A program made the position numbers and the translations under genes. From a virus (Duplodnaviria > Caudoviricetes), in IMG/VR virus record IMGVR_UViG_3300042569_002957, positions 7,173-71,172 of that record: a stretch of DNA of 64,000 nt; one strand, 5' to 3'. Below, piece after piece: positions 29,931 to 41,306 of the stretch. The first letter of the stretch is position 1. Every line of letters starts with the position of its first letter. Under the pieces are notes generated by a model. That model did no database searches. It was not told where the DNA came from and was given only the letters and a program-made list of their open reading frames with translations.

Positions 29931-31109
29931 TTAAGAAAGTAATTGAGAATTTGCAAGTAATGCTCGAGAGAAATTTTCTATAGTATGCTCATTATGAAGG
30001 TTGGAAGACAAATTAGAGTTGCGAATAAGATTTAATGCTTGGCCACAGGTTAGCATAGAGGACAGTCTTGATCGAACATATCTGGCATAATCCATGGCAC
30101 TATAGGAGTAGACACGACGAGAAGTTTCTTCTTGATTACAATCACAATCTTCATCGTCACAATCTGATTCAATATTAACAATACGAAAAGGAGGATCAGT
30201 TATATTATTTTCTGCAAAAAAATCCTGAAGAAATGATTCTTCGACTTCGCGCATTTGTCCAACAACTCTATCGGAGAAAGAAGCATTAGGCCAAACTAAA
30301 GAACTAACTTCATGAAGTTGAAACTGCTCCCAAAGTTTAAAGAAAAAATCAATAGAAGAAAAGTCCAGATAAAACGAAGATGAACTGACTAGAGAAGCAG
30401 AGTTTAAAGAATCTTTATCAAAAACAGTAGGAACATTTTTGCTTTTCAAAGGAAGAAGCTGAAAATGAGCTTCAACAATATTCATTGTTAAATCTAAATT
30501 AGTTCCACTATTCCATATCCAATCATAAGAGGCTTGGATGACTCCAGATATATCGTTAGGATAACGCTCTATATCATCCATGGAAGCGTACATTGGATTG
30601 CACAACAAGCCTGAAGTATAGAAATTTGGAAGAGGCGGTAAATAAATTCTTTGGCTTAGGATATCTGATCCAGTTAAGGATGAATTCATGAAATACATTC
30701 GAACCGAATTAGGATAATATCTGCCACCATAGATGTTGTAGGTGCATATATAGACTTGCCAAGGAATGGGCAATCTATAAAGATTAGAGTCGTGTCGATC
30801 ATAATCTATGCTTTCAACAACTTGAGGGATTAGTTGAACGTTTTGATATTGAGGAGGTCTTTCAAAAATAATAAGATTAGAATCAATATGAAGAACTCCG
30901 GGAGGCATAATTCCTGTATCTTGAGAGAAAGCTTTATCAGGATCTAAGCTAAGAACGAATGAAGAAAATTGAGAAAGTATCTGCTCATTATCTGGAGAAA
31001 TACTAATGGAAGCAAGATGAAAATCGTTAAATTTTTCACATTCAGTTATAACACTATCGGTTGAAGATGATAGTGGACTACCTAAGTATGAAATATTAGA
31101 TCTCTGCAT
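29931..31109 (-). CDS. Prokaryotic E2 (UBC-fold, Prok-E2_D-like) protein, paralogue 3
   Basis: FERPP...LPIPWQVYI...RMYF...IYLPPLPNFYTSGLLC...WIWNSGTNLDL: PN-x4-G-x2-C catalytic signature. Confidence 0.7.
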   Translation of the reverse strand: MQRSNISYLGSPLSSSTDSVITECEKFNDFHLASISISPDNEQILSQFSSFVLSLDPDKAFSQDTGIMPPGVLHIDSNLIIFERPPQYQNVQLIPQVVESIDYDRHDSNLYRLPIPWQVYICTYNIYGGRYYPNSVRMYFMNSSLTGSDILSQRIYLPPLPNFYTSGLLCNPMYASMDDIERYPNDISGVIQASYDWIWNSGTNLDLTMNIVEAHFQLLPLKSKNVPTVFDKDSLNSASLVSSSSFYLDFSSIDFFFKLWEQFQLHEVSSLVWPNASFSDRVVGQMREVEESFLQDFFAENNITDPPFRIVNIESDCDDEDCDCNQEETSRRVYSYSAMDYARYVRSRLSSMLTCGQALNLIRNSNLSSNLHNEHTIENFSRALLANSQLLS

Positions 31110-32694
31110 TTGAATAACCTACAATGTCTAGTTTATCTTTGATGGACATTTCTAATAAATTTACATATGTTTCAACAGAGTAAGGAATTACATAGATTTC
31201 TTTAGTTAGGAAATCGTAACAATATAGGCTGTTGGAGCAAGTGTGTGGGTCTATGCTGTAATCGCTAATAATTTTATCTAGTAATTTTTTATATTCTAGA
31301 TCTGTAAAGTTTTGCGCAACATAATAAAAAGCGTGAGAAATATCGGCAATTGCCCTGGAAGAAAAAGCCCAAGAAGAAGTATCAGAAACATTATTGATGA
31401 TCATTACACGAGCATCGATATAGTTGTATGGGGAAGATATTCCTCTTTTAGAGGCAACTTTTTTAATTACTTCAGGAAGATCTGCTATAGATTCAGTTGA
31501 GGAACTATGAGGATTGGAGCTGTTTGATGCGGCTACTATTTGAGAAAAAGTTCCATAATATTGAAAAGAATCAGAATTACTAAAATAATATCTATTGACT
31601 TTTGAACAGTAAGGATGGTCTGGATTCTGCATTATGAGATTGCGAATACAAGCATATTCCTCTAGAAGATCTAATATTTCTTGAAGAGAAAATGTGGATA
31701 GCATTGTTAGAATATAGTGATGAGACTGAGCATTGTCACAGTTTTGTAGCAAGCTATAGTTTGCAATTTTCTCGCTTGCTGTTCTTTCGGTAATTGTTTG
31801 GCGCGCAGAAATCATATAATTAATATAAGAAATTTTAGAGCCAAATACTTTTTTCAATTCATCATCAGAAGGATTGAATAGCTTGAACATCATTGGATAG
31901 AGGTGTTCATCTTCAGGAAAAAAAGAATGTATAACAGTATGTATTCTATAGAATAAAGAAGACCATGGATTAGATAGGTCAGCGTTCCAAGCTCCAGCAA
32001 AGTACTCATTAATATAGAAAGAATAAAGTTGAGAAACACTCAAAGAAGAAAAAGTACTATATTCTGGCATATTGTAGATACTAGATGAATAACAAATTGA
32101 ACCGTCTTGATACGTATTGGGAAGATATGTAGCAAAATAAATATCATCCATATTAGTTAACGATTTATGAGAGAAGTACATTGCACTTTTTTGTGTTTTA
32201 GGATTAAGGACAAATAGAGTCCAGGGAACCCATACCATTGTATCGGTAAGTTTTTTCTTGGTTCTAGACTGAGCTCCTCCCATTTTATAATCTATATTAG
32301 CTTGAAATGGTGGACGCTCAATATAGTAGGTTCCTTGAGAATCAATATATCGAGTAGCTATAGGGTAAGTATCTGAAAAAAGATTAGAATCTAAAGATTT
32401 ATTAGCTTCTTCTATAAGAATGCTAGTATCAAGAGAGGCTCTTGTTTGAATGGATAAATTAATAACAGGCAAAGAATTTTTGTCAGTTATCTGAGTAACC
32501 GGAAGATGCTTCCACTGGTCAATATAGTTATAAAAATAACGAGAATTTGACAAGTCTGCATGATCTCCAGAATGATTCTTGGATGTACAAATAATCTCAT
32601 TAAATAATGGATCACAAGAAATGGATATACTATAAGAATTAGTATAAAGTGGATCAATAGTTACATAATGTTTTTCATTATAAAAATTAGACAT
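31096..32694 (-). CDS. Prokaryotic E2 (Prok-E2_D-like) protein, paralogue 2, with long C-terminal extension
   Basis: YYIERPP...WVPWTLFV...YFATYLPNTYQDGSIC...YFAGAWNADL. Confidence 0.7.
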   Translation of the reverse strand: MSNFYNEKHYVTIDPLYTNSYSISISCDPLFNEIICTSKNHSGDHADLSNSRYFYNYIDQWKHLPVTQITDKNSLPVINLSIQTRASLDTSILIEEANKSLDSNLFSDTYPIATRYIDSQGTYYIERPPFQANIDYKMGGAQSRTKKKLTDTMVWVPWTLFVLNPKTQKSAMYFSHKSLTNMDDIYFATYLPNTYQDGSICYSSSIYNMPEYSTFSSLSVSQLYSFYINEYFAGAWNADLSNPWSSLFYRIHTVIHSFFPEDEHLYPMMFKLFNPSDDELKKVFGSKISYINYMISARQTITERTASEKIANYSLLQNCDNAQSHHYILTMLSTFSLQEILDLLEEYACIRNLIMQNPDHPYCSKVNRYYFSNSDSFQYYGTFSQIVAASNSSNPHSSSTESIADLPEVIKKVASKRGISSPYNYIDARVMIINNVSDTSSWAFSSRAIADISHAFYYVAQNFTDLEYKKLLDKIISDYSIDPHTCSNSLYCYDFLTKEIYVIPYSVETYVNLLEMSIKDKLDIVGYSNAEI

Positions 32695-32705
32695 GGTGTA
32701 ATTCC

Positions 32706-39881: not shown

Positions 39882-39920
39882 TTTTTCTCCTATTATAATA
39901 ATTTCTAGGTCTTTGATTAA

Positions 39921-41306
39921 TCAAAAAGGTTCTTGGGAATGGTTAGCTAATGCAGTAATACATTGTTGACATATATTAGAATCGTCAGGACTGCTCAGCA
40001 TGAAGGTATAAAAATCATCATGATCAGAATACATTCCATCGCCACAACTTACACAATACTTATAATCTGCAAAATGAACTAAAGAATCGGCATATACATA
40101 TACTTCGCTGCGATTAAGCCATGTAAGACTATCATTGTCATGATAACATCCAGTATTTTTGGCTAATGAAAAATGCTCTTCTAAACAATCTTGACAAATA
40201 TAAGATGAGTTATAAGTAACATGTGGAGTTTCGTTTTGTTCAGAATAAGTTTCACTACAGCATTCGCAATACCATGAATTTTCATCATCCTCAAATGGCT
40301 GTTCGTCATCTTGGTTGACAGGAAAAGCAGGAGGTGCTAAAGAAAGATTTTCTTTAACTGATAAACTACTGGAGTATGGATCAATGGATAATTGGGATTT
40401 AGAAGATTCATTATAAGATTTGGTAAACCATTGAAAAACTAAATTAGAATCTAAAGAATAATCTGATCTAGCAATACGATTGACAGGCTTAGGTATTAGA
40501 TCATCATGGTAATAACACTTGTAATTACCTATGATAGCATCAGCAAATGTCAGAGGTTGGCCGTCAGAGTAATGCATGTCTTGATTATCTTTATCTTTGA
40601 CTAAGATAGGAATCCAAAGATCGGGATCTAATGTCCATTCAAAATTCTCTTCGTCAGATTTATCTTCCCACATTTGTGGATTAGTCAAGTATTCAGGCTT
40701 TGAATGGTCACGATATAAACGAGGACCATCAGTCTCACTCATATTCTGATCGTTATAAGCTTCTGTGCCGGAGCATCGATCTAATACTTTAATAAGTTTT
40801 TCGTTAAATGGATAGTGAGATACATCTTCGTTATGATATAAGCAAATCCATCCAACACTATTGCCTCTGTAACCTTTGCAGTTAATGTTAGGGAGATTAA
40901 CGTGATAAAGAGGAGTCTGGGGATGAGTAATAGGTGTTAAGCTGTAATAAGTTCTAGCGCCATATATATTGCCATTAAGTAGATCAGCTACAACGATTCG
41001 ATAAGGTTGAGCAACGTAATACTTTTTAGCATCTCGATCTCCCTCAAAAGAACCCCAGTTAATATAGTATTTACCTGGAGCATACTGGTAAGCAATTTGA
41101 GTATGATTGCCAGCTGTTCTAATTGACAACAGTCCAGTGCCATCTACGGGCAACAGGCCAGTATCAAAATAAGCTGATTGAGAAAATGTAGTATAGAATG
41201 ATGCAATGTCTTTATCTGTTACATGGTCTAAGCCAAAAGAATTAACACTAGAGCGAAATACAAGATTGCCTTGGTCAGTGGTAAATGCATAGTTAACATT
41301 TTTCAT
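39921..41306 (-). CDS. Prokaryotic E2 (Prok-E2_D-like) protein, paralogue 1, with C-terminal zinc-finger-like repeats
   Basis: YQYAPG...VAQPYRIVV...LYHVNLPNINCKGYRGNSVGWICL; CECC...CQDC and CVSC...CQQC. Confidence 0.75.
   Translation of the reverse strand: MKNVNYAFTTDQGNLVFRSSVNSFGLDHVTDKDIASFYTTFSQSAYFDTGLLPVDGTGLLSIRTAGNHTQIAYQYAPGKYYINWGSFEGDRDAKKYYVAQPYRIVVADLLNGNIYGARTYYSLTPITHPQTPLYHVNLPNINCKGYRGNSVGWICLYHNEDVSHYPFNEKLIKVLDRCSGTEAYNDQNMSETDGPRLYRDHSKPEYLTNPQMWEDKSDEENFEWTLDPDLWIPILVKDKDNQDMHYSDGQPLTFADAIIGNYKCYYHDDLIPKPVNRIARSDYSLDSNLVFQWFTKSYNESSKSQLSIDPYSSSLSVKENLSLAPPAFPVNQDDEQPFEDDENSWYCECCSETYSEQNETPHVTYNSSYICQDCLEEHFSLAKNTGCYHDNDSLTWLNRSEVYVYADSLVHFADYKYCVSCGDGMYSDHDDFYTFMLSSPDDSNICQQCITALANHSQEPF

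What the first reader, a model, noticed from the sequence alone, without database searches (positions are those of the whole stretch)
29931..41306. Phage-encoded, apparently complete ubiquitin-like conjugation/deconjugation system
Seen: consecutive co-oriented genes E2-like (39921-41306), JAB peptidase with an intact HxH-x7-S-x2-D motif, ThiF/E1 with a candidate catalytic Cys, and an 84-aa beta-grasp protein ending in Gly (AGEKG). An AAA+ ATPase and two more E2-like genes follow. Known: the Prok_Ub + ThiF + Prok-E2_D + JAB set defines the plasmid/ICE-borne PRTRC cassettes, whose function is unknown, and bacterial E1/E2/JAB systems (Bil, type II CBASS) are anti-phage. Inference: here the machinery sits on the virus side, in the - strand arm, with no ParB or CD-NTase in the window. 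It may tag host or defence proteins, or phage proteins, for remodelling. I cannot confirm how often this has been described in phages.
Basis: partly seen in the sequence, partly recalled or inferred. Interest (0 to 1): 0.93.

Follow-up and report, generated by a model that had tools for sequence, protein, structure and literature searches.

The report
Phage-borne ubiquitin-like tagging system, three E2s
A large uncultured lake-water phage, probably of actinobacteria, carries its own conserved gene set for attaching and removing a small ubiquitin-like tag (one activating enzyme, three conjugating-enzyme paralogues, one removing protease); bacteria are known to use such chemistry against phages, but here the virus carries it and its targets are unknown.

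Summary
On the - strand lie E2a (39921-41306), a JAB/JAMM peptidase (38193-39881), a 253-aa ThiF/E1 (37435-38196) and an 84-aa protein (37167-37421). That protein folds in silico as a beta-grasp and ends in an invariant ...AGEKG. A conserved terminator hairpin closes this four-gene unit. A Cdc48/PAN-like AAA ATPase follows, and further on two more E2 paralogues (31096-32694, 29931-31109).

No window E2 matches Pfam directly. Their shared core keeps an invariant (L/I)PN-x7-C. Of 102 homologues, 23 hit Prok-E2_D. A positional orthologue in a distant relative passes Pfam's cut-off.

A complex prediction threads the Ubl tail into the E1 nucleotide site (0.79 against a best control of 0.21).

The cassette is syntenic in more than 15 related phage contigs of up to 216 kb, which carry WhiB. 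Those searched whole lack ParB, CD-NTase and tyrosine integrase.

I read it as a ParB-less, multi-E2 relative of PRTRC cassettes that works as a conjugation/deconjugation system. Its targets are unknown. The AAA ATPase is not specific to it.

Canonical PRTRC cassettes have already been noted in temperate phages (2026 papers). This scan has flagged the same cassette in at least seven other genomes, and one follow-up reached the same verdict.

The parts
39921..41306 (-). E2a: 461-aa E2-like protein. The N-terminal ~320-aa core carries LPN...GWIC(155)LYH(158). The C-terminal tail has four CxxC pairs, and the number of pairs varies among orthologues.
   Evidence: Alignments; paralogy to E2c by hhalign 94%, E 1e-7; merged core alignment with invariant Asn and Cys. 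The AF2 model was poor (pLDDT 60.5) and the fold search uninformative.
38193..39881 (-). JAB/JAMM metallopeptidase, 562 aa: N-terminal domain, JAMM core (about residues 106-247), Pro/Thr-rich linker and Cys-rich C-terminal region.
   Evidence: Prok-JAB 1.9e-5; PRTRC_A 6.8e-4 over residues 106-247; E142, HxH 195-197, S205 and D208 invariant.
37435..38196 (-). E1: 253-aa single-domain ThiF-family adenylating enzyme with candidate catalytic Cys186 in PGE(L/M)SCxER.
   Evidence: PF00899 1.4e-11; best NCBIfam match PRTRC_ThiF 6.4e-7; invariant motifs; 75-99% identical across relatives.
37167..37421 (-). Ubl: 84-aa beta-grasp protein with a disordered N-terminus and an invariant C-terminal EFHR(R/K)AGEKG ending in Gly84.
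   Evidence: Alignment (three orthologues carry two extra residues after the Gly); AF2 model and Foldseek hits to ubiquitin, SUMO and NEDD8; predicted docking of residues 77-84 into the E1 active site.
37124..37153 (-). Intrinsic terminator-like hairpin (13-bp stem, 9 G-C pairs, then a T run) between the Ubl and AAA genes. It closes the four-gene unit E2a-JAB-E1-Ubl.
   Evidence: A strong hairpin sits at the same place in 8 of 9 genomes folded, with differing stem sequences (z from -2.7 to -5.4; one at -1.6).
35467..37077 (-). Classic-clade AAA+ ATPase (Cdc48/PAN/FtsH-like single module, pore loop FIG) with a 235-aa N-terminal domain. It is a conserved neighbour; membership of the system is not shown.
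   Evidence: PF00004 4.8e-23; CDC48 1.6e-35 and PAN 3.4e-32; phrog_8638. Homologues of about 30% identity occur in 58 cultured phages, whereas the ThiF finds only 2 phage records.
31096..32694 (-). E2b: 532-aa E2 paralogue, core about residues 105-245 with LPN(193)-x7-C(201). Outside the core it evolves fast.
   Evidence: N193 and C201 invariant; hhalign to E2c 98%, E 2e-13; merged core.
29931..31109 (-). E2c: 392-aa E2 paralogue, core about residues 60-215 with LPN(162)-x7-C(170).
   Evidence: N162 and C170 invariant. The ESM Atlas neighbour cluster has Prok-E2_D on 13% of its members.

Best explanation
This is a virus-encoded ubiquitin-like protein conjugation and deconjugation system, distantly related to the PRTRC (Prok_Ub / ThiF / Prok-E2_D / Prok-JAB) cassettes of plasmids and ICEs.

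Inferred steps. (1) The 84-aa Ubl is made with, or trimmed by the JAB peptidase to, a free C-terminal Gly84. (2) The 253-aa ThiF dimer binds the Ubl, threads its tail (residues 77-84) into the nucleotide site, adenylates Gly84 and probably takes it onto Cys186 as a thioester. (3) The Ubl passes to the invariant Cys of one of three E2 paralogues (E2a C155, E2b C201, E2c C170). Each E2 keeps an (L/I)PN-x7-C active-site signature like HPN-x7-C of canonical E2s. (4) With no E3 in sight, the E2s themselves transfer the Ubl to lysines of targets. Their fast-evolving non-catalytic parts (Zn-ribbon tail on E2a, long variable C-terminal regions on E2b and E2c) choose different targets. (5) The JAB peptidase reverses the mark.

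The genes sit in the replication and early-type arm of a large phage that is probably virulent and probably infects actinobacteria. The most likely targets are therefore host proteins (takeover or counter-defence), but this last step is inference only.

Shown in silico: the folds, motifs, paralogy, synteny and E1-Ubl docking. Not shown: any thioester, any conjugate or any target.
For: Family assignments. ThiF is above the Pfam cut-off. The JAB has a complete JAMM motif. The best NCBIfam matches are PRTRC_ThiF and PRTRC_A.

Ubl. The model is a beta-grasp and its top PDB matches are ubiquitin, SUMO and NEDD8. The C-terminal ...AGEKG is invariant in 13 orthologues down to 43% identity. Three orthologues carry a 2-residue extension after the Gly, as expected for a precursor that must be trimmed.

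E1-Ubl. Complex prediction scored 0.79 against a best control of 0.21; that mark was reached by 58 of 80 solved complexes and 2 of 110 mismatched pairs. The runs agree in at least 97% of contacts and the partner's pLDDT is at least 81. Ubl residues 77-84 touch E1 residues 14-16 (the Gly loop), R52, 116-120 (D118) and 141-144. ThiF-ThiS and MoeB-MoaD complexes are solved, so this pass may partly reflect that likeness.

E2s. The three families are paralogues. Their merged core keeps invariant Pro, Pro, Pro, Asn, Cys and Asn. Pro, Pro and Asn stay invariant and Cys at least 90% conserved in 102 diverse homologues; all five of P, P, N, C, N are invariant in the 118-sequence alignment. The only PDB sequence hit of the core profile is a ubiquitin-conjugating enzyme, aligned HPN..C onto LPN..C (E 0.87, weak). 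Of 102 homologues, 23 hit Prok-E2_D, while no other family is hit by more than one. PRTRC_B is the only NCBIfam family hit more than once. Positional orthologues in a distant relative score 35.7 bits for Prok-E2_D (cut-off 25) over the same residues that hhalign aligns to the core (95-99% probability).

Conservation. The whole cassette is syntenic in more than 15 IMG/VR contigs. E1 and Ubl are the most conserved genes and E2b and E2c the least. The terminator hairpin after the Ubl gene is conserved in position.

Occurrence. The DNA is in 17 lake-water metagenome runs, and contigs from RNA libraries of three studies cover parts of it.
Against: None of the three window E2 paralogues, nor the Ubl, matches any Pfam or NCBIfam model directly. 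The E2a model was of low confidence (pLDDT 60.5), and neither Foldseek nor VIA-align found an E2 fold, so the E2 fold rests on sequence links only. The JAB and ThiF scores for the PRTRC models are far below their cut-offs. No E3, substrate or adaptor is identified. No biochemical evidence exists. RNA-library contigs can contain carried-over DNA.
Confidence: 0.7

Rival explanations
1. The system is a weapon against other phages (superinfection exclusion). Like bacterial Bil systems, it would conjugate the Ubl to structural proteins of competing phages rather than to host proteins.
For: The only bacterial E1/E2/JAB/Ubl operons with a shown function (Bil) and the E1-E2 proteins of type II CBASS are anti-phage (PMC11601596 introduction; PMC10097602). 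Fast-evolving E2 paralogues would fit an arms race with rival viruses.
Against: The cassette is a fixed, syntenic core feature of the whole clade, next to replication genes, not a variable island. The E1 is a single 253-aa domain, unlike Bil E1. No PADLOC model beyond weak E1-E2 and IetA matches.
Confidence: 0.12
2. The Ubl modifies the phage's own proteins, for example in virion assembly, scaffolding or timing of the infection cycle. The JAB would remove the tag at maturation, in the spirit of the lambda tail-assembly Ubl and JAB pair.
For: Phage tail-assembly modules with a Ubl-like domain and a JAB peptidase are known (PMC1779556). Bacillus phage vB_BceM_WH1 also pairs a JAB-like gene with a ThiF of the same Cys motif, a few genes from a virion structural gene.
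Against: The cassette lies in the replication arm, far from the fibre and structural genes. Lambda-type modules have no E1 or E2.
Confidence: 0.1
3. Tag-and-unfold. The Ubl marks proteins for the adjacent Cdc48/PAN-like AAA ATPase, and in some relatives for an HslV-like peptidase. Together these would form a viral ubiquitin-proteasome-like degradation route.
For: The AAA gene follows the Ubl gene in all relatives. It is of the classic unfoldase clade with an aromatic-hydrophobic-Gly pore loop. An HslV/proteasome-like Ntn peptidase (Pfam Proteasome 28.6 bits, N-terminal MTT) lies about 2 kb past the UDG gene in 11 cassette-bearing loci.
Against: A conserved terminator separates the Ubl and AAA genes. 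AAA homologues occur in 58 cultured phages, while the ThiF finds only 2 phage records. The HslV-like gene is absent from the window by tblastn, and most phage loci that hold it show no cassette genes within 10 kb.
Confidence: 0.1
4. The Ubl is only a sulfur carrier (ThiS/MoaD/TtuB-like): it is adenylated and thiocarboxylated by the ThiF for a thiolation reaction, with no protein conjugation.
For: ThiF-family E1s with small beta-grasp partners ending in Gly are the classical sulfur-transfer pair. The weaker NCBIfam matches are to MoeB and ThiF.
Against: There is no rhodanese or other extra domain on the 253-aa E1. No PF01171 (TtuA/NcsA/TilS-type) enzyme occurs in five related phage records. Three E2 paralogues with an invariant Cys and a JAB isopeptidase are unnecessary for sulfur transfer. 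The C-terminus is ...KG, not the usual ...GG.
Confidence: 0.04

Closest known systems
PRTRC cassette (ParB-Related, ThiF-Related Cassette; NCBIfam PRTRC_A/B/C/ThiF/F; Pfam Prok-JAB, Prok-E2_D, Prok_Ub; operon type 6d of Iyer, Burroughs and Aravind 2006, PMC1779556)
   Same: The four activities are the same: small Ubl ending in Gly, short single-domain ThiF, E2-like protein with a conserved Cys, and JAB peptidase. The best curated matches of E1 and JAB are the PRTRC models. The E2 family links to Prok-E2_D and PRTRC_B. E2a has a His three residues after the Cys, as described for the 6d E2. Function is unknown in both.
   Different: Scores are far below the PRTRC cut-offs. No ParB-like gene is found in three related, nearly complete genomes. 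There are three (in one relative four) E2 paralogues instead of one. The E2a and JAB are long, with Cys-rich tails. The Ubl does not match Prok_Ub. The carrier is a large phage of about 170-216 kb with no tyrosine integrase, rather than a plasmid, ICE or temperate phage.
Canonical PRTRC cassettes already noted in phages: Burkholderia gladioli phage AB2 (with BgVeeders33 and Ralstonia phage Dina; PMC13366799), and a Phocaeicola vulgatus prophage whose PRTRC protein B is a recurrent mutational hotspot that the paper links to a diversity-generating retroelement (bioRxiv 10.64898/2026.10.01.756045)
   Same: An E1/E2/JAB/Ubl set carried by a phage. The E2 appears to be the variable part, a mutational hotspot there and the fastest-diverging gene with paralogue expansion here.
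   Different: Those are temperate phages with annotated, canonical PRTRC proteins including ParB. Their authors read the cassette as a partitioning module or a moron. The present system is too diverged for annotation pipelines and lacks ParB.
Bil (bacterial ISG15-like) anti-phage systems: BilA Ubl, BilB E2, BilC JAB, BilD E1
   Same: Separate Ubl, E2, JAB and E1 genes, and conjugation without a dedicated E3. This is the only such bacterial operon type with a demonstrated biological role.
   Different: [quoted passage not shown] Bil is a host defence and has one E2. No sequence link was found.
Type II CBASS Cap2/Cap3 (E1-E2 fusion plus JAB)
   Same: E1 and E2 chemistry with a JAB antagonist. 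The ThiF has weak PADLOC E1-E2 matches (5e-5).
   Different: There is no CD-NTase and no E1-E2 fusion. A free Ubl is present here instead of the CD-NTase C-terminus.
Bacillus phage vB_BceM_WH1 gp215-gp216 (LC597490)
   Same: A large (229.8 kb) cultured phage with adjacent JAB-like (Prok-JAB 0.0029) and ThiF genes. Its ThiF keeps the same E-x-S-C-x-E-R Cys motif.
   Different: It is only 26-30% identical. No E2 or Ubl was recognised next to it (not searched in depth).

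Membership tests
ThiF/E1 adenylating enzymes (PF00899) | HMM score above the gathering cut-off, plus the nucleotide-binding Gly loop, Arg finger and Mg-binding Asp | tested here: met
   44.5 bits against a cut-off of 28.1; G12xGGxG17, R52-Q53, D118-N119 and R123 invariant.
JAB/JAMM metallopeptidases (PF14464 Prok-JAB) | E...HxH-x7-S-x2-D metal-binding motif; HMM score above the cut-off | tested here: met
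   The motif is complete and invariant: E142, H195, H197, S205, D208. The HMM score is 24.9 bits, 0.1 below the cut-off of 25.
Ubiquitin-like beta-grasp modifiers | Beta-grasp fold with an exposed flexible C-terminal tail ending in Gly that fits an E1 active site | tested here: met
   Predicted only. The AF2 model has pLDDT 80.8, and ubiquitin, SUMO and NEDD8 are the top PDB matches. Gly84 is invariant. The tail docks in the E1 site with score 0.79 against a best control of 0.21.
Prok_Ub (PF14454) / PRTRC_C | HMM match | tested here: not met
   No match for 13 orthologues at E up to 10, nor in five related phage records at E up to 1.
Prok-E2_D (PF14460) / PRTRC_B | HMM score above the cut-off (25 bits) on the protein itself | tested here: not met
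   The window's E2a, E2b and E2c get no hit at E up to 10. Indirect link: 23 of 102 homologues hit it (best 1.1e-4). A positional orthologue in G005 scores 35.7 bits over residues 49-183 and aligns to the shared core at 95% probability.
E2/UBC superfamily | Conserved catalytic Cys preceded by an (H)PN motif at fixed spacing | tested here: met
   Asn and Cys are invariant in all three paralogue families, with Asn-x7-Cys in E2b and E2c as in HPN-x7-C. The core profile's only PDB hit is UBC1 (2aak), aligned at this motif (E 0.87).
E2/UBC superfamily | UBC fold (N-terminal helix, antiparallel sheet, active-site flap, C-terminal helices) | tested here: inconclusive
   The E2a model has pLDDT 60.5 with a helix, a beta-meander and later helices, but the active-site stretch is below pLDDT 50. 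Foldseek and VIA-align list no E2.
PRTRC cassette | ThiF and JAB reach the NCBIfam cut-offs of PRTRC_ThiF and PRTRC_A | tested here: not met
   28.9 bits against 144.75, and 19.2 bits against 101.8, although these are the best-scoring families.
PRTRC cassette | A ParB-related protein (PRTRC F) in the cassette | tested here: not met
   No ParB_N (PF02195) in three related phage records of 85-100% completeness, and none among the flanking genes scanned. The rest of the window was not scanned.
Bil system | [quoted passage not shown] | tested here: not met
   The E1 is 253 aa with one ThiF domain. The architecture of Bil E1 is taken from PMC11601596.
Type II CBASS | CD-NTase gene and E1-E2 fusion (Cap2) | tested here: not met
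   No SMODS (PF18144) in five related records. E1 and the E2s are separate genes.
Classic-clade AAA+ ATPases (PF00004) | HMM score above the cut-off; Walker A and B motifs | tested here: met
   82.5 bits against 21.2. GVPGTGKS and VWIDEF are seen in the translation.

The most novel reading that the evidence does not exclude
A widespread clade of large lake-water actinophages runs its own ubiquitin-like system. A single E1 and Ubl pair feeds a panel of three or four rapidly diversifying E2 'writers', each aimed at a different host protein (for example defence or proteostasis factors). The tagged proteins are then inactivated, or handed to the neighbouring Cdc48-like unfoldase and, in some relatives, to an HslV-like peptidase. 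That would be a viral, E3-free counterpart of ubiquitin-directed host takeover, so far known only for viruses of eukaryotes.
Probability: 0.15. Interest if true: 0.9.

Novelty: new variant of a known kind. Interest (0 to 1): 0.7.

Why it matters
Ubiquitin-like conjugation in bacteria has so far been shown to act for the host against phages (Bil, type II CBASS). The far commoner PRTRC-type cassettes have had no function since their description in 2006.

Here the same chemistry is a fixed, strongly conserved core feature of an abundant group of large phages. E1 and Ubl are 75-99% and 58-99% identical across the clade (52% and 44% in the most distant relative, L023). One E1 and Ubl pair serves several diverging E2s. 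That gives a natural handle on two questions: what PRTRC-like systems do, and how E3-less E2s choose targets.

If the targets are host proteins, this would be a phage counterpart of the ubiquitin hijacking used by eukaryotic viruses. The proteins are small, soluble-looking and testable in vitro with standard thioester and isopeptide assays.

Tried and rejected
Direct family scans. Pfam, NCBIfam, PHROGs and PADLOC on the three E2 paralogues and the Ubl gave nothing.

PDB profile searches. The Ubl, the E2a domain and the 211-aa protein gave nothing significant.

E2a fold. The model was too weak (pLDDT 60.5). Foldseek's best E was 0.2 and VIA-align's best Z was 5.5, to unrelated sheets. This is uninformative, not negative.

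Nucleotide and plasmid searches. Megablast of the region against 50,697 phage records found no match. tblastn of the ThiF against plasmids found only 4 distant ThiF genes and no PRTRC plasmid.

Shared Cys-rich module on E2a and JAB. hhalign found no homology.

A fourth E2 in the window. The 333-aa protein (32706-33707) is not related to the core.

Partner of the AAA ATPase. The 211-aa protein has no family, with only a 0.83 Atlas lead to Whirly. It is unrelated to the gene after the AAA in Agrobacterium phage JP1.

Proteasome-like gene. It is present in relatives but has no tblastn match in the window.

The search for homologous proteins. With the E2a and E2c profiles it returned only unannotated metagenomic relatives.

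RNA-library contigs. They leave 38214-38816 and several other bins uncovered, and no silent control stretch was laid, so they neither prove transcription nor define transcript ends.

Cellular genomes. The scan of 185,579 species genomes with the ThiF profile found only two short MAG contigs. The scan uses short conserved peptides and sees close relatives only.

Full report
**What is there.** The window is a phage contig of 35-40% G+C. It has a collagen-like tail fibre gene and a helicase, six tRNA genes and a WhiB gene at 21486-21821 (63.3 bits). No whole genome is held for it.

From 41306 down to 29931, all on the - strand, lie the following genes:
- a 461-aa protein (E2a);
- a 562-aa JAB peptidase;
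- a 253-aa ThiF;
- an 84-aa protein (the Ubl);
- a 536-aa AAA ATPase;
- five small or unassigned genes of 211, 128, 95, 183 and 333 aa;
- two further proteins of 532 aa (E2b) and 392 aa (E2c).

The flanks are a small M50-like membrane peptidase upstream and, downstream, a MerR-like HTH protein, an SSB and a uracil-DNA glycosylase. This is therefore the replication and early-type arm of the phage.

**E1, JAB and Ubl.** The ThiF passes Pfam's cut-off (44.5 bits). Its best NCBIfam match is PRTRC_ThiF (6.4e-7), ahead of MoeB and ThiF. Across orthologues of 50-89% identity, and in a 30%-identical ThiF of Bacillus phage vB_BceM_WH1, four features are invariant: the Gly loop, R52-Q53, D118-N119-x3-R123 and Cys186 (in PGE[LM]SCxER).

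The JAB domain scores 24.9 bits (cut-off 25) and is closest to PRTRC_A (6.8e-4). Its JAMM motif (E142, H195xH197, S205, D208) is complete and invariant.

The 84-aa protein matches no profile. Its AlphaFold2 model (pLDDT 80.8) has the beta-beta-alpha-beta-beta-beta order of a beta-grasp, and its top PDB neighbours are ubiquitin variants, SUMO1 and NEDD8. The tail EFHR(R/K)AGEKG is invariant in 13 orthologues down to 43% identity. In three orthologues the terminal Gly is followed by two more residues (SL or NI). That is what one expects of a modifier whose Gly must be exposed by a peptidase.

A complex prediction of an E1 dimer plus the Ubl scored 0.79 against a best control of 0.21. That mark was reached by 58 of 80 solved complexes and 2 of 110 mismatched pairs. 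The runs agree in at least 97% of contacts and the partner's pLDDT is at least 81. Ubl residues 77-84 lie against E1 residues 14-16, 52, 116-120 and 141-144, which is the nucleotide site. ThiF-ThiS and MoeB-MoaD complexes are solved, so part of this pass may reflect that likeness.

**Are the three large proteins E2s?** None of them matches Pfam, NCBIfam, PHROGs or PADLOC directly. The E2a model was poor (pLDDT 60.5), so the fold searches say nothing either way. The case rests on sequence, in five steps.

1. E2b and E2c are homologous (hhalign 98%, E 2e-13). E2a and E2c are too (94%, E 1e-7).
2. A merged alignment of the roughly 150-residue core of 25 members keeps only six invariant residues. 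Among them are the Asn of an (L/I)PN motif and a Cys eight positions later in E2b and E2c, the spacing of HPN-x7-C in canonical E2s. E2a carries a 14-residue insert and a His three residues after the Cys, which is the peculiarity Iyer et al. described for the E2 of their operon type 6d.
3. The core profile's only hit in the whole PDB sequence set is a ubiquitin-conjugating enzyme (2aak), aligned exactly at this motif. The E-value of 0.87 is not significant on its own.
4. An exhaustive profile search found 1,913 cluster representatives. Of 102 of the best, 23 match Pfam Prok-E2_D (best 1.1e-4), while every other family is hit by a single member. PRTRC_B is likewise the only NCBIfam model hit more than once. 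The ESM Atlas gave the same lead independently.
5. In the most distant relative (the record of L023), three consecutive paralogues occupy the position of E2b and E2c. One scores 35.7 bits for Prok-E2_D (cut-off 25) over residues 49-183, the same stretch that hhalign aligns with the core. The three align to the core at 95.3%, 98.4% and 99.4% probability.

I conclude that the three genes are divergent members or close sisters of Prok-E2_D with an intact active-site signature. The UBC fold itself remains to be shown.

**Conservation and gene organisation.** More than 15 IMG/VR contigs of up to 216 kb carry the whole cassette in the same order. Identities to the window's proteins across the close relatives are:
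- E1: 75-99%
- Ubl: 58-99%
- AAA: 53-98%
- E2a: 43-90%
- JAB: 35-92%
- E2b and E2c: about 30-80%

In the most distant relative, L023, the E1 is 52% and the Ubl 44% identical. So the activating enzyme and the tag are under the tightest constraint, and the putative specificity factors under the loosest.

E2a's tail holds a variable number of CxxC pairs and is missing in one orthologue. The Cys-rich tail of the JAB is not detectably related to it.

A 13-bp G+C-rich hairpin with a T run follows the Ubl stop codon. A strong hairpin with a different stem sequence sits at that place in 8 of the 9 genomes folded. E2a-JAB-E1-Ubl is therefore a four-gene unit, and the AAA gene starts a new unit or is reached by read-through.

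**What does not belong, or is not shown to belong.** The AAA ATPase is a classic-clade unfoldase type (CDC48 1.6e-35, PAN 3.4e-32). However, homologues of about 30% identity occur in 58 cultured phages of Pseudomonas, Rhizobium, Rhodobacter and Mycobacterium, whereas the ThiF finds only two phage records. The AAA is thus a common phage gene that happens to be a fixed neighbour here.

The 211-aa gene behind it has no family, only a weak Whirly lead.

An HslV/proteasome-like peptidase (N-terminal MTT; Pfam Proteasome 28.6 bits; phmmer to HslV 3e-5) lies about 2 kb beyond the UDG gene in 11 cassette-bearing loci. It has no tblastn match in the window, and most other phage loci that hold it show no cassette genes within 10 kb.

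**Lifestyle and host.** Five related records (75-100% complete by CheckV) all carry one to three WhiB genes, and none has SMODS or a tyrosine integrase. ParB_N was searched in three of them (85-100% complete) and not found. The low G+C would fit freshwater actinobacteria (my knowledge, not tested).

The stretch is held by 17 lake-water metagenome runs. Contigs from three metatranscriptome libraries cover parts of E2a, JAB, E1, Ubl and AAA, including one 1,856-nt contig across the Ubl-AAA gap. DNA carry-over was not excluded.

Among 185,579 species genomes, only two short MAG contigs of unrelated taxa hold a close ThiF relative. Within the reach of that search, this branch looks viral.

**Mechanism and rivals.** The best-supported reading is a working conjugation and deconjugation cycle. 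The JAB exposes or recycles Gly84. The ThiF adenylates it and probably forms a Cys186 thioester. The tag moves to the E2 Cys and then to target lysines, with the E2s as E3-less specificity factors.

The alternatives and my estimates are:
- Sulfur-carrier role, about 0.04. There is no rhodanese domain and no PF01171 enzyme, and three E2s plus a JAB would be superfluous.
- Superinfection exclusion, about 0.12.
- Modification of the phage's own proteins, about 0.10.
- Coupling to the AAA unfoldase, about 0.10.

The last three differ only in the target and cannot be separated computationally.

**Comparison with what is known.** The system works like, and descends from the same stock as, the PRTRC cassettes (type 6d of PMC1779556). 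It fails their membership tests: it is below the cut-offs, has no ParB and has no Prok_Ub match.

Canonical PRTRC cassettes have recently been noted in temperate phages. In Burkholderia gladioli phage AB2 the cassette is read as a partitioning module (PMC13366799). In a Phocaeicola vulgatus prophage, PRTRC protein B is a recurrent mutational hotspot that the paper links to a diversity-generating retroelement (bioRxiv 10.64898/2026.10.01.756045). That observation fits the idea that the E2 is the target-recognition part.

I found no paper in the searchable library that describes this ParB-less, multi-E2 form in large virulent-type phages, or any function for PRTRC.

This scan has flagged the same cassette in at least seven other genomes, and one follow-up (e1-5833340) reached the same verdict.

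**Verdict.** This is a new variant of a known kind. The targets and biological role are unknown and experimentally tractable.

Noticed in passing
L027:1075-1683 and L028:1120-1731 (related phage records G004 and G002); no counterpart found in the window: An HslV/proteasome-like Ntn peptidase of 202-203 aa starting MTTIVAL (Pfam Proteasome 28.6 bits; phmmer to Thermotoga HslV 3e-5). It lies about 2 kb past the UDG gene in 11 cassette-bearing phage loci. The scan confirmed 349 viral stretches that encode it; most of the 80 loci fetched show no cassette genes within 10 kb.
   Followed up: partly
window 21486-21821 (-): A WhiB-family transcription factor (63.3 bits). All five related phage records have one to three WhiB genes, one of them a few kb upstream of E2a. 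This supports an actinobacterial host.
   Followed up: yes
window 42141-42596 (-): A 151-aa membrane protein with an HExxH motif, matching Peptidase_M50 (5.4e-7). It is conserved just upstream of the cassette in all relatives. A miniature site-2-protease-like gene in a phage.
   Followed up: no
L024 (Bacillus phage vB_BceM_WH1, LC597490) 4501-6810: A cultured 229.8-kb Bacillus phage has an adjacent JAB-like gene (gp215, Prok-JAB 0.0029) and a ThiF (gp216) with the same E-x-S-C-x-E-R Cys motif, followed by a NADAR-family gene. No E2 or Ubl was recognised next to them.
   Followed up: partly
L001/L018 (IMG/VR GVMAG-M-3300027797-21), P0103, L118, L119: Near-identical or related cassette contigs are filed under a giant-virus MAG, a 'Flavobacterium sp.' record (193-kb contig), and Cyclobacteriaceae and Ectothiorhodospiraceae MAGs. 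These are probably phage contigs swept into the wrong bins.
   Followed up: no
L025/L026 (record of L023), G005:C1 about 31.2-33.9 kb: The most distant relative has three consecutive downstream E2 paralogues, making four E2s with E2a. E2 copy number therefore varies within the clade.
   Followed up: yes
window 34822-35457 (-): A well conserved 211-aa protein (55-98% identity in the close relatives, 38% in L023) directly after the AAA ATPase has no family. Its nearest ESM Atlas cluster with a Pfam family is Whirly (score 0.83), so it may be an ssDNA-binding protein.
   Followed up: partly
window 15902-17377 (+): A tryptophan-halogenase-like gene (phrog_2928, 6e-98) lies in the + strand arm next to the fibre genes.
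   Followed up: no
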